From sequence record PZ166176.1: 64,000 nt of DNA; one strand, 5' to 3'. The position numbers were made by a program, and so were the translations under genes. The notes under the pieces were generated by a model, which did no database searches, was not told the DNA's origin, and saw only the letters and a list, made by a program, of their open reading frames with translations. The DNA is from a phage. Below are positions 36,556 to 36,625 of this stretch, one piece after another (position 1 is the first letter of the stretch; every line of letters begins with the position of its first letter).

Positions 36556-36625
36556 TTCCCGTTAGACTTACAGGATAAGAGTTCCACAGCTTATTGTGAT
36601 GTTGGTTCGAATCCAGCACGGGATA
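36556..36625 (+). ncRNA. tRNA-like element with truncated anticodon domain (possible pseudo-tRNA)
   Basis: T-arm GTTGG-TTCGAAT-CCAGC and near-complementary acceptor TTCCCGT/ACGGGAT, but anticodon region is only a CACAG-CTTA-TTGTG tetraloop hairpin; no CCA. Confidence 0.3.

What the first reader, a model, noticed from the sequence alone, without database searches (positions are those of the whole stretch)
36556..36625. Second tRNA-like element with a truncated anticodon domain
Between tRNA-Ile and tRNA-Met: T-arm (GTTGG-TTCGAAT-CCAGC) and near-complementary acceptor strands are present, but the anticodon region is only about 14 nt (CACAG-CTTA-TTGTG tetraloop hairpin) and no CCA is encoded. Two such elements in one array suggest they are not random decay products.
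Basis: seen in the sequence. Interest (0 to 1): 0.4.

Follow-up and report, generated by a model that had tools for sequence, protein, structure and literature searches.

The report
Conserved non-decoding tRNA-like gene in phage
Between two real tRNA genes this E. coli phage carries a tRNA-shaped gene with no usable anticodon loop; it belongs to a previously undescribed, structurally conserved family shared by several unrelated enterobacterial phages, so it is probably a working tRNA mimic rather than junk, though its job is unknown.

Summary
Window 36556-36625 (+), between tRNA-Ile and tRNA-Met of a Phapecoctavirus tRNA array, has a 7-position acceptor stem (6 Watson-Crick pairs plus a U·U at 1:72), a D-arm with GG, and a canonical T-arm. 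Its anticodon arm is only 14 nt (CACAG-CTTA-TTGTG), its variable region is 2 nt, and no CCA is encoded. ARAGORN does not call it at default settings, and Rfam tRNA scores it 21.8 bits against a threshold of 29.

It is not random decay. All 14 Phapecoctavirus genomes I fetched carry it at the same site (71 records match at 80% coverage or more). A covariance model places it in a discrete family: members score 60-93 bits, ordinary tRNAs 43.5 or less. Other members occur in some Vequintavirinae, Schitoviridae (KP8-like, PW8, SonariX-like) and phiEB49. Every family locus whose origin I checked was a phage.

The cloverleaf covaries: 93% of cells are paired, 10 of 20 pairs change on both sides, and 0 of 500 shuffles reach this. 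Anticodon-position loops are 3-9 nt and mostly non-canonical.

Within Phapecoctavirus the element varies more than its neighbouring tRNAs.

Best reading: a co-transcribed, tRNA-processed, non-decoding tRNA mimic. The function is inferred. The main rival is a pseudogene or a cis-acting processing role.

The parts
36556..36562 (+). Acceptor stem, 5' strand (TTCCCGT)
   Evidence: Pairs with 36618-36624. Family covariation at 2:71, 3:70 and 7:66. Invariant in the 14 Phapecoctavirus alleles.
36565..36584 (+). D-arm: GACT TACAGGATAAGAG TTC. The outer pairs are G10-C29 and A11-T28 in alignment columns. The loop holds G18 G19.
   Evidence: Column pair 11:28 covaries, A-U in Phapecoctavirus against G-C in all other lineages. 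The motif TAGRCTTA..GG.TAAG is conserved family-wide.
36585..36598 (+). Anticodon-position hairpin, 14 nt: stem CACAG/TTGTG (last pair G·U), loop CTTA. There is no 7-nt anticodon loop.
   Evidence: Sequence. The stem is kept in all alleles (A-U to G·U); the loop varies as CTTA, TTTA, TTT or CTA with 1-nt indels. Stems of other lineages covary.
36599..36600 (+). 2-nt variable region (AT)
   Evidence: Reads AT or AC in 2 columns in every family row. My own knowledge: canonical tRNAs have at least 4 nt here.
36601..36617 (+). T-arm GTTGG-TTCGAAT-CCAGC. This window has a T·G wobble where the relatives have C-G.
   Evidence: T-stem pairs 49:65 and 51:63 covary across the family.
36618..36625 (+). 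Acceptor stem, 3' strand (ACGGGAT), plus discriminator A. Followed by CATAAT, with no CCA encoded.
   Evidence: Position 72 is T or C and is always mismatched with T1 in Phapecoctavirus. Most other lineages encode CCA.
36480..36553 (+). Flanking tRNA-Ile(GAT), ending in an encoded CCA 2 nt before the element
   Evidence: 72.2 bits.
36632..36710 (+). Flanking tRNA-Met(CAT), starting 6 nt after the discriminator
   Evidence: 50 bits.
36103..36132 (+). Sigma-70-like promoter TTGACA-18-TATAGT (11 of 12 matches) in front of tRNA-Gly. Predicted start of the Gly-Gln-Pro-Ile-element-Met transcript.
   Evidence: This is a consensus match only.
36826..36850 (+). Intrinsic-terminator-like hairpin AGCCTCC-TTATT-GGAGGCT followed by TTTTG. 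Predicted end of the operon.
   Evidence: The same site is annotated as a rho-independent terminator in phage ASO2A.

Best explanation
The element is a real gene for a tRNA-shaped RNA that cannot decode. It belongs to a discrete family that I found only in phages. The family probably descends from a tRNA gene. It has kept the acceptor stem, the D-arm and the T-arm, which together form the 'top half' and elbow of a tRNA. In place of the anticodon arm it has a short, lineage-specific hairpin, and its variable region is only 2 nt.

Proposed mechanism:
1. It is transcribed as part of the Gly-Gln-Pro-Ile-X-Met precursor, from the promoter at 36103-36132 to the terminator at 36826-36850 (inferred from consensus sites and the tRNA-like 2-6 nt spacing).
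2. It folds into a cloverleaf (shown by covariation across the family).
3. It is released like a tRNA. RNase P would cut at its own 5' end and at the 5' end of tRNA-Met, exonucleases would trim the 3' end, and the host CCA-adding enzyme could add CCA (inferred from what is established about minihelix and elbow recognition by these enzymes).
4. With a 3-4-nt loop it cannot read codons (follows from the structure).
5. It acts in trans as a tRNA mimic. It would occupy a protein that reads the acceptor, T-arm and elbow rather than the anticodon, for example a host tRNA-targeting defence or a tRNA-processing or quality-control enzyme. The hairpin would be the lineage-specific part (inference only; no partner has been identified).

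The Phapecoctavirus copy in this window is the most reduced member of the family.
For: Not a canonical tRNA but tRNA-like:
- ARAGORN at default does not call it. Rfam tRNA gives 21.8 bits against a threshold of 29.
- Family members from KP8 and A73 are also sub-threshold, at 25.3 and 26.4 bits.

A discrete family:
- With covariance model R1, members score 60-93 bits and ordinary tRNAs score 43.5 or less.
- Members are found in Phapecoctavirus, A73/UPEC06/LTH01 (Vequintavirinae), NDO71 (Mydovirus), KP8/VLCpiP4b (Kaypoctavirus), PW8 (Gamaleyavirus), SonariX-type phages and phiEB49.

Structure under selection:
- 92-93% of cells are paired, 10 of 20 pairs change on both sides, and 0 of 500 shuffles reach the observed covariation score. 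Controls with slid partners pair at 26-47%.
- KP8 and NDO71 share the 6-nt loop AGGCAT while the stem covaries, CATAGC/GTTATG against CGCAGC/GTTGCG.
- The KP8-type copy is 100% identical among phages whose 200-nt flanks are 40-82% identical. It is 86% identical to NDO71, where the flanks are unrelated.
- Window against A73: the element is 79% identical (83% locally). The same-anticodon tRNAs are 60-75% identical, and nothing else between the arrays aligns except tRNA-Pro.

Found only in phages:
- No hit in 5,426 complete E. coli genomes.
- The only family hit among the species-representative bacterial genomes is a contig that carries the Phapecoctavirus form of the element next to the same tRNA-Met start, which I read as phage contamination of that genome bin.

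Other points:
- All 14 Phapecoctavirus alleles keep the acceptor stem, the T-arm and the hairpin stem.
- Operon signals.
- No conserved ORF: the loop carries 1-nt indels.
Against: - There is no expression, processing or binding data of any kind. The trans-acting role is pure inference.
- Within Phapecoctavirus the element is the most variable part of its operon. Nucleotide diversity (pi) is 4.7%, against 0.3-2.4% for the flanking tRNAs (Fisher p=6e-4). It even exceeds two neighbouring spacers (p=0.05).
- It has a 1:72 mismatch, no encoded CCA and a weak D-stem. Single isolates carry changes at G18 (phage ev052) and in the D-loop (phage DIJ07P1). All of this fits relaxed constraint.
- The contrast between conserved helices and the variable rest inside the element is not significant (p=0.17).
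- The covariation rests on about seven lineages. It would also be expected if the lineages were simply diverged tRNA paralogues.
- A stoichiometric decoy would have to compete with the very large cellular tRNA pool.
- The sister genus Justusliebigvirus does without the element.
Confidence: 0.5

Rival explanations
1. It is a decaying tRNA pseudogene, or a purely cis-acting relic. A former tRNA gene lost its anticodon loop. What remains survives because it lies inside a tightly packed tRNA operon, where its minihelix still serves as an RNase P and exonuclease punctuation mark for the neighbouring tRNA-Ile and tRNA-Met. Alternatively there has simply not been time to delete it. The released RNA has no function of its own.
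For: - Nucleotide diversity is highest within the operon and is significantly above that of the flanking tRNAs.
- The loop carries 1-nt indels. There is a 1:72 mismatch and no CCA. Single isolates have changes at G18 and in the D-loop.
- The window's own T-stem has a C-to-T wobble change.
- The sister genus Justusliebigvirus lacks the element.
- Other sub-threshold tRNA-like remnants exist in the same array.
- Array content is visibly fluid: tRNA-Tyr is missing in this window.
Against: - A neutral relic should not be the best-conserved item between the Phapecoctavirus and A73 arrays.
- It should not be 100% identical in Kaypoctavirus amid divergent flanks.
- It should not show a conserved 6-nt loop with a covarying stem across a podovirus and a myovirus.
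- It should not show compensatory changes in all four helices, including the anticodon-position hairpin and the D-stem, which a processing signal would not need.
- None of the 14 fetched genomes has lost it, and 71 records match at 80% coverage or more.
Confidence: 0.33
2. It is a functional decoding tRNA with an unconventional anticodon loop, for example doublet or frameshift decoding or suppression, or an isoacceptor that the scanners mis-fold.
For: - Some family members have been annotated as ordinary tRNAs: phiEB49 as tRNA-Val(AAC) and KP8 as tRNA-Leu(CAG) (PMC6950046).
- The SonariX-type is called tRNA-Stop(tta) by relaxed ARAGORN and scores 33.3 bits with Rfam tRNA. PW8 scores 40.7 bits.
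- A review notes that a few natural tRNAs, including some in a phage, have non-standard anticodon loop sizes (PMC5009743).
Against: - In this window the loop is 4 nt, and it is 3 nt in two relatives. It varies by indels within the genus, which is incompatible with presenting a fixed anticodon.
- The 2-nt variable region and the 1:72 mismatch are atypical.
- The tRNA-Leu(CAG) reading of KP8 needs a 3-bp stem that the NDO71 sequence destroys, whereas the alternative of a 6-bp stem with a 6-nt loop covaries.
- Loop sequences and sizes differ between lineages with no common anticodon.
- Relaxed ARAGORN's 'tcca' fold overlaps the CCA of tRNA-Ile and uses pairings that are absent from homologues.
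Confidence: 0.04
3. It is a chance resemblance, or part of a protein-coding or other cis-regulatory feature. Some records annotate a hypothetical protein across it.
For: - ORFs of 50-59 aa overlap the region on both strands.
- The WPEC, EP57 and NDO71 records annotate hypothetical proteins there.
Against: - 1-nt indels within the genus would shift any reading frame.
- Conservation follows RNA helices with compensatory changes.
- Homologues lie in tRNA arrays with tRNA-like spacing in unrelated phages.
- The R1 score gap separates the family cleanly from ordinary tRNAs.
Confidence: 0.02

Closest known systems
Canonical elongator tRNA genes of phage tRNA arrays (Rfam RF00005)
   Same: Cloverleaf with a 7-position acceptor stem, U8, G18 G19, a TTCGAAT T-loop and a 5-bp T-stem. 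Sits in a tRNA operon with 2-6-nt spacers. Evidently derived from a tRNA gene.
   Different: 14-nt anticodon arm with a 3-4-nt loop instead of 17 nt with a 7-nt loop. 2-nt variable region. 1:72 mismatch. No CCA encoded. Scores 21.8 bits against a threshold of 29. It cannot decode.
Bacteriophage T4 stable RNAs rnaC (species 1) and rnaD (species 2) in the T4 tRNA cluster
   Same: Small non-tRNA RNAs encoded inside a phage tRNA cluster and of unknown role (PMC3014915). The 3' end of rnaC carries a T-arm-like CCGGG-TTCGAAT-CCCGG.
   Different: Not homologous: model R1 matches only the T-arm of rnaC, at 14 bits. The T4 RNAs are 119-139 nt and are not simple cloverleaves.
Non-decoding tRNA-like structures used as RNase P/Z substrates: mascRNA from MALAT1, and plant mitochondrial t-elements (PMC1920247)
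   Same: A tRNA-shaped fold with an aberrant or reduced anticodon arm. It is recognised through the acceptor and T-arm and excised from a longer transcript. It is not used in translation.
   Different: Those are eukaryotic or organellar and unrelated in sequence. Rfam mascRNA-menRNA does not hit the element. Processing of the phage element has not been tested.
Phage tRNAs that counter tRNA-targeting defences: T5 tRNA-Lys against PARIS (PMC11464382), phage tRNAs against retron effectors (PMC11555353), anticodon-loop variants (PMC10264068)
   Same: Accessory RNAs encoded in phage tRNA arrays. They are patchily distributed, and their value depends on host tRNA-directed immunity.
   Different: Those are functional decoding tRNAs that replace cleaved host tRNAs or resist cleavage. 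This element has no anticodon loop and could act only as a mimic or inhibitor. No link to any defence system has been shown.
Bacterial Y-RNA-like YrlA (RF02553) and the tmRNA tRNA-like domain
   Same: Non-decoding RNAs that imitate the tRNA acceptor, T-arm and D-arm in order to engage tRNA-binding proteins.
   Different: Their topology differs: the ends of YrlA lie at the anticodon-stem side, and tmRNA is much larger. Rfam gives no hit of either family on the element itself, and ARAGORN finds no tmRNA.

Membership tests
Canonical decoding tRNA (RF00005) | 7-bp acceptor stem closed by a discriminator base | tested here: met
   TTCCCGT/ACGGGAT gives 6 Watson-Crick pairs plus a U·U at 1:72; the discriminator is A.
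Canonical decoding tRNA (RF00005) | T-arm: 5-bp stem with a T-Psi-C-type 7-nt loop | tested here: met
   GTTGG-TTCGAAT-CCAGC.
Canonical decoding tRNA (RF00005) | 5-bp anticodon stem with a 7-nt loop carrying U33 and a purine at 37 | tested here: not met
   The arm is 14 nt with loop CTTA, 3 nt in two relatives. Infernal skips the arm as a local gap.
Canonical decoding tRNA (RF00005) | Variable region of at least 4 nt | tested here: not met
   It is 2 nt (AT) here and 2 nt in every family row.
Canonical decoding tRNA (RF00005) | Score at or above the detection thresholds | tested here: not met
   Rfam 21.8 bits against a gathering score of 29. ARAGORN at default makes no call. At -ps80 it gives only 'tRNA-???(tcca)' in a non-conserved fold.
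Canonical decoding tRNA (RF00005) | 3' CCA present and the RNA aminoacylated | not testable with these tools
   CCA is not encoded (ACAT follows the stem). Post-transcriptional addition and charging need an experiment.
Phage tRNA-like family defined here (covariance model R1) | High score to the family model, clearly separated from ordinary tRNAs | tested here: met
   The window scores 87.4 bits, members 60-93 bits, and the best ordinary tRNA 43.5 bits. Note that the window sequence was in the seed alignment. NDO71, PW8, VLCpiP4b and LTH01 were not, and they score 60-88 bits.
Phage tRNA-like family defined here (covariance model R1) | Conserved D-region motif TAGRCTTA..GG.TAAG, a 2-nt variable region, and a non-canonical anticodon-position hairpin | tested here: met
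Phage tRNA-like family defined here (covariance model R1) | Located in a phage tRNA array with tRNA-like spacing | tested here: met
   Window: 2 nt after tRNA-Ile and 6 nt before tRNA-Met. A73: 3 nt after tRNA-Tyr. KP8 and SonariX: just after tRNA-Gln.
T4 rnaC/rnaD stable RNAs | Sequence or structure homology to rnaC or rnaD | tested here: not met
   Model R1 with filters off matches only the T-arm of rnaC (14 bits, model positions 47-65) and nothing in rnaD.
T4 rnaC/rnaD stable RNAs | Accumulates as a stable processed RNA from the tRNA transcript | not testable with these tools
   Only promoter and terminator consensus sites are available.
mascRNA / t-element type tRNA-like processing signals | Membership in the Rfam mascRNA-menRNA family | tested here: not met
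   No hit on the element at E up to 10.
mascRNA / t-element type tRNA-like processing signals | Cleaved by RNase P at the 5' end and by RNase Z or exonucleases at the 3' end, then CCA added | not testable with these tools
   Inferred from the intact acceptor and T-arm minihelix only.
YrlA Y-RNA-like / tmRNA | Match to RF02553 or to tmRNA models | tested here: not met
   No such hit on 36552-36633. The weak YrlA hit at 36418-36537 covers tRNA-Pro and tRNA-Ile. ARAGORN finds no tmRNA.

The most novel reading that the evidence does not exclude
The family is an RNA-based counter-defence or host-takeover factor. It would be a horizontally exchanged, non-decoding tRNA mimic. Its conserved top half docks onto a host protein that recognises tRNA by the acceptor, T-arm and elbow, such as a tRNA-targeting immune nuclease or transferase, or a processing or quality-control enzyme. 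Its lineage-specific hairpin would tune or block catalysis. The unusually high within-genus variability of the hairpin in Phapecoctavirus would then reflect an arms race rather than decay.
Probability: 0.18. Interest if true: 0.8.

Novelty: new variant of a known kind. Interest (0 to 1): 0.5.

Why it matters
Phage tRNA arrays are usually read only as codon supplements or, more recently, as replacements for host tRNAs destroyed by defence nucleases. Sub-threshold 'pseudo-tRNAs' are ignored or mis-annotated. Members of this family are labelled tRNA-Val, tRNA-Leu, tRNA-Gln or 'hypothetical protein', or are left blank.

The analysis shows that one such element belongs to a structurally constrained family. 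The family is shared by myoviruses, podoviruses and a siphovirus of enterobacteria, and its anticodon loops are mostly unusable. This suggests that some phage tRNA-like genes are kept for a job other than decoding.

If that job is molecular mimicry directed at host tRNA-binding proteins, it would add an RNA class to the phage-host conflict over tRNAs.

The practical gains are a covariance model to fix annotations and a short list of constructs to test.

Tried and rejected
1. Relaxed ARAGORN (-ps80) folds 36549-36626 as 'tRNA-???(tcca)' with an 8-nt loop. Rejected: it borrows the CCA of tRNA-Ile, has mismatches in the acceptor stem, and uses the pairing TAAGA/AGCTTA, which is absent from A73, KP8 and the other homologues.

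2. The RNAfold minimum-free-energy structure pairs D-loop GGAUAAG with CUUAUU of the hairpin. Rejected as window-specific: it is not conserved in other lineages.

3. A coding reading. Rejected: the ORFs are short, they lie on both strands, and 1-nt indels within the genus break them.

4. A global MAFFT alignment of whole arrays misaligned paralogous tRNAs because array content differs between genomes. I replaced it with per-feature BLAST extraction.

5. The IMG/VR pattern hits L007 and L009, most of the genome-contig hits, and several metagenome hits are chance matches or ordinary tRNAs. Only Phapecoctavirus, KP8-type and SonariX-type copies were real.

6. Homology to T4 rnaC/rnaD. Rejected.

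7. A host origin. Rejected: there is no BLAST hit in the complete E. coli genomes.

8. Aminoacylation identity elements that work without an anticodon, judged from my own knowledge of E. coli identity rules. G3:U70 for AlaRS is absent (the pair is C3-G70). The element has no long variable arm for SerRS. The discriminator varies across lineages (A, G or C), which is inconsistent with LeuRS.

9. Literature searches found no description of this family. They gave only general context on phage tRNAs and defence, and the KP8 paper's tRNA-Leu(CAG) call.

Full report
**Where the window comes from.** The 2-kb tRNA region of the window is 97-99% identical to Phapecoctavirus genomes. These are phAPEC8-like E. 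coli myoviruses of the subfamily Stephanstirmvirinae. ARAGORN finds ten tRNA genes on the + strand between 35006 and 36710.

**The observation.** The finding lies in the 78-nt gap between tRNA-Ile(GAT), 36480-36553, and tRNA-Met(CAT), 36632-36710. The sequence reads as follows:
- TTCCCGT: acceptor 5' strand, 36556-36562.
- TA.
- GACTTACAGGATAAGAGTTC: D-region with GG, 36565-36584.
- CACAG-CTTA-TTGTG: a 14-nt hairpin, 36585-36598.
- AT.
- GTTGG-TTCGAAT-CCAGC: T-arm, 36601-36617.
- ACGGGAT: acceptor 3' strand, 36618-36624.
- A: discriminator, 36625.
- CATAAT: trailer.

The acceptor stem has six Watson-Crick pairs and a U·U mismatch at 1:72.

ARAGORN at default settings does not call the element. 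Rfam's tRNA model did not report it in a 2.8-kb scan. On an 82-nt slice it hits exactly 36556-36625 at 21.8 bits, below the gathering score of 29, and it bridges the anticodon arm as a local gap. None of the relatives I inspected annotates a tRNA there; a few annotate a spurious 'hypothetical protein'.

**Conservation within the genus.**
- BLAST finds the element with its flanks at 80% coverage or more in 71 phage records, nearly all of them Phapecoctavirus.
- I extracted the Ile-Met spacer from 14 genomes. All keep the acceptor helix TCCCGT/ACGGGA, the T-arm and the hairpin stem. The only stem changes are A-U to G·U in the hairpin and C-G to U·G in the T-stem; the latter is private to this window.
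- The variable sites are the hairpin loop (CTTA, TTTA, TTT or CTA, with 1-nt indels), the 2-nt linker, position 72 (always mismatched), the trailer, one D-arm position, and two singletons in the D-loop. One of the singletons hits G18.
- Measured feature by feature, the element has nucleotide diversity (pi) of 4.7% and 10 segregating sites in 72 nt. The values for neighbouring tRNAs are: Ile 0.36%, Gln 0.88%, Pro 1.7%, Met 2.35% and Ser 0.3%. Two spacers of the same operon show 1.0% and 3.0%.
- The excess over the tRNAs is significant (p=6e-4). The excess over the spacers is marginal (p=0.05). The contrast between helices and the rest inside the element is not significant (p=0.17).
- At this shallow depth, then, the copy looks less constrained than a working tRNA.

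**A wider family.** Sensitive BLAST and pattern scans found homologues outside the genus:

| Lineage | Phages | Position or annotation |
|---|---|---|
| Vequintavirinae | A73, W70, A7_1, UPEC06, LTH01 | directly after tRNA-Tyr |
| Mydovirus | NDO71 | in a tRNA array; a 'hypothetical protein' is annotated across it |
| Kaypoctavirus | KP8, BaqKoxi, VLCpiP4b and about 8 others | after tRNA-Gln; KP8's copy is annotated tRNA-Leu |
| Gamaleyavirus | PW8 | unannotated |
| Enterobacter phages | SonariX, SABI, plus IMG/VR and metagenome contigs | after tRNA-Gln |
| Drexlerviridae | phiEB49 | annotated tRNA-Val(AAC) |

- A covariance model built on 15 sequences (R1) scores family members at 60-93 bits, including four that were not in the seed. 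The best ordinary tRNA in 130 kb of phage sequence scores 43.5 bits. The family is therefore discrete.
- Justusliebigvirus, the sister genus, has no member.
- The only family hit among the species-representative bacterial genomes is a contig that carries the Phapecoctavirus form of the element next to the same tRNA-Met start, which I read as phage contamination of that genome bin.
- 5,426 complete E. coli genomes give no hit.
- Rfam tRNA scores of members are mostly sub-threshold: window 21.8, phiEB49 24.6, KP8 25.3 and A73 26.4. SonariX reaches 33.3 and PW8 40.7. Real tRNAs in the same loci score 54-72.

**Structure.**
- On the family alignments the cloverleaf is strongly supported. 92-93% of cells form standard pairs and 10 of 20 pairs change on both sides. 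0 of 500 column shuffles reach the observed covariation score. Controls with slid partners pair at 26-47%.
- Compensatory changes occur in the acceptor stem (2:71, 3:70, 7:66), the T-stem (49:65, 51:63), the D-stem (column pair 11:28, A-U in Phapecoctavirus against G-C elsewhere) and the anticodon-position stem.
- All members share an unusual layout: a long D-arm of about 20 nt with the motif TAGRCTTA..GG.TAAG, and only 2 nt between the anticodon-position stem and the T-stem.

The loop at the anticodon position differs by lineage:

| Lineage | Loop |
|---|---|
| Phapecoctavirus | 3-4 nt |
| A73 and UPEC06 | 5 nt on a 6-bp stem |
| KP8 and NDO71 | 6 nt, AGGCAT |
| PW8 | 6 nt, AAACCA |
| phiEB49 | 7 nt, on a bulged stem |
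| SonariX-type | 9 nt, or 7 nt with C33 |

**Three observations against neutral decay.**
1. KP8 (a podovirus) and NDO71 (a myovirus) keep the same 6-nt loop while the stem covaries, CATAGC/GTTATG against CGCAGC/GTTGCG. This also contradicts the published tRNA-Leu(CAG) reading for KP8 (PMC6950046).
2. The KP8-type copy is 100% identical in phages whose 200-nt flanks are only 40-82% identical. It is 86% identical to NDO71, where the flanks are unrelated.
3. Between this window and A73 the element is 79% identical (83% locally). The tRNAs with the same anticodon are 60-75% identical, and the spacers do not align at all.

**Context.**
- A near-consensus sigma-70 promoter (TTGACA-18-TATAGT, 36103-36132) precedes tRNA-Gly. 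A terminator-like hairpin with a T-run lies at 36826-36850. The same terminator is annotated in phage ASO2A.
- The predicted transcript is Gly, a structured spacer, Gln, Pro, Ile, the element, then Met.
- The element's spacing from its neighbours, 2 nt and 6 nt, is that of a tRNA gene.
- The array lies upstream of small genes, the spanin genes and the terminase gene.

**Interpretation.**
- Shown: the element exists as described. It is not a canonical tRNA. It is conserved at the same site in every Phapecoctavirus genome I fetched. It belongs to a discrete family whose cloverleaf is maintained by compensatory change and whose anticodon-position loops are mostly incompatible with decoding.
- Inferred: it is co-transcribed with its neighbours. 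It is released through RNase P cleavage at its own 5' end and at the 5' end of tRNA-Met, followed by 3' trimming and possibly CCA addition. This rests on its intact acceptor and T-arm minihelix and elbow, which are the established recognition elements for these enzymes.
- Speculative: it acts in trans as a tRNA mimic.

I favour the mimic reading (0.5). A cis-acting processing signal or a relic would not need a conserved D-arm sequence, a conserved hairpin loop or a covarying hairpin stem. Nor would it be expected to spread between unrelated phages and stay identical amid diverging flanks.

The main rival is a pseudogene or a purely cis-acting punctuation mark (0.33). It is kept alive by this copy's high within-genus variability, the 1:72 mismatch, the missing CCA and the absence of the element from the sister genus. 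A decoding role (0.04) and an artefact or coding reading (0.02) are unlikely.

**Comparison with known systems.**
- The closest analogues in kind are the T4 stable RNAs rnaC and rnaD. They also sit in a phage tRNA cluster and their role is unknown (PMC3014915). The element is not homologous to them.
- Eukaryotic and organellar tRNA-like processing substrates, such as mascRNA and plant mitochondrial t-elements (PMC1920247), are a second analogue.
- Recent work shows that phage tRNAs can neutralise tRNA-targeting immunity (PMC10264068, PMC11464382, PMC11555353). Those RNAs are decoding tRNAs. No anticodon-less mimic was described in the papers I could search.
- Rfam has no family for the element.
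- I therefore rate it a new variant of a known kind (tRNA-like non-coding RNA), of moderate interest. It would be of considerably higher interest if a host target were found.

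Noticed in passing
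window 36218-36315 (+), between tRNA-Gly and tRNA-Gln: A long imperfect hairpin, AAUUAUUUAAU.AAGGGU.GCCAGAA ... UUCUGG.UGCCCUU.AUUAAAUGAUU, closes a pyrimidine-rich loop of about 45 nt. Its minimum free energy is -24.2 kcal/mol with z=-5.7 against shuffles. It is highly conserved in Phapecoctavirus (pi 0.98%). It could be another small RNA or a processing element inside the tRNA operon.
   Followed up: partly
ARAGORN at -ps80 calls it Leu(caa), with an 8-nt T-loop and an odd anticodon arm. It is conserved (pi 1.1%) and does not belong to the R1 family (16 bits).
   Followed up: partly
window 35393-35482 (+) and 36025-36104 (+): Two further sub-threshold tRNA-like stretches. The first matches Rfam tRNA-Sec at 37.4 bits and is called tRNA-Ser(TGA) by tRNAscan-SE in phage ASO2A, so it is probably a real type-II tRNA that default ARAGORN misses. 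The second, 'Thr(agt)', is weak and overlaps the promoter at 36103-36132.
   Followed up: no
window 35572/35579 junction: This genome lacks the tRNA-Tyr(GTA) that most relatives carry between tRNA-Ser(GCT) and tRNA-Asn; some relatives annotate it as a pseudogene. The relatives are about 220-310 bp longer over the whole 2-kb array region. Array content is polymorphic within the genus: some relatives have an extra tRNA-Pro, or an insertion between Pro and Ile.
   Followed up: partly
window 36632-36710 (+): The tRNA-Met downstream of the element has an A×C mismatch at 1:72 and the lowest Rfam score of the ten tRNAs, 50 bits. Relatives annotate it variously as tRNA-Met, 'tRNA-Pseudo-CAT' or, in Justusliebigvirus, tRNA-fMet. 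It may be initiator-like.
   Followed up: no
L012 605-680 (KP8), L003 299-375 (phiEB49), L110 703-779 (NDO71): Public annotations of family members look wrong or inconsistent: tRNA-Leu(CAG) in KP8, tRNA-Val(AAC) in phiEB49, and a 'hypothetical protein' across the copy in NDO71. NDO71's neighbouring tRNAs are also annotated on the strand opposite to where Rfam finds them.
   Followed up: partly
Phage records matched: Phapecoctavirus-like genomes are deposited as Campylobacter phage B15 and A110a, Pseudomonas phage PsgM04F, Acinetobacter phage ABPW7 and 'Dompiswa phage'. A Proteobacteria genome bin also contains a 43.5-kb contig (L099) that carries the Phapecoctavirus form of the element and the start of the same tRNA-Met. 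These are probably host mislabels or contamination.
   Followed up: no
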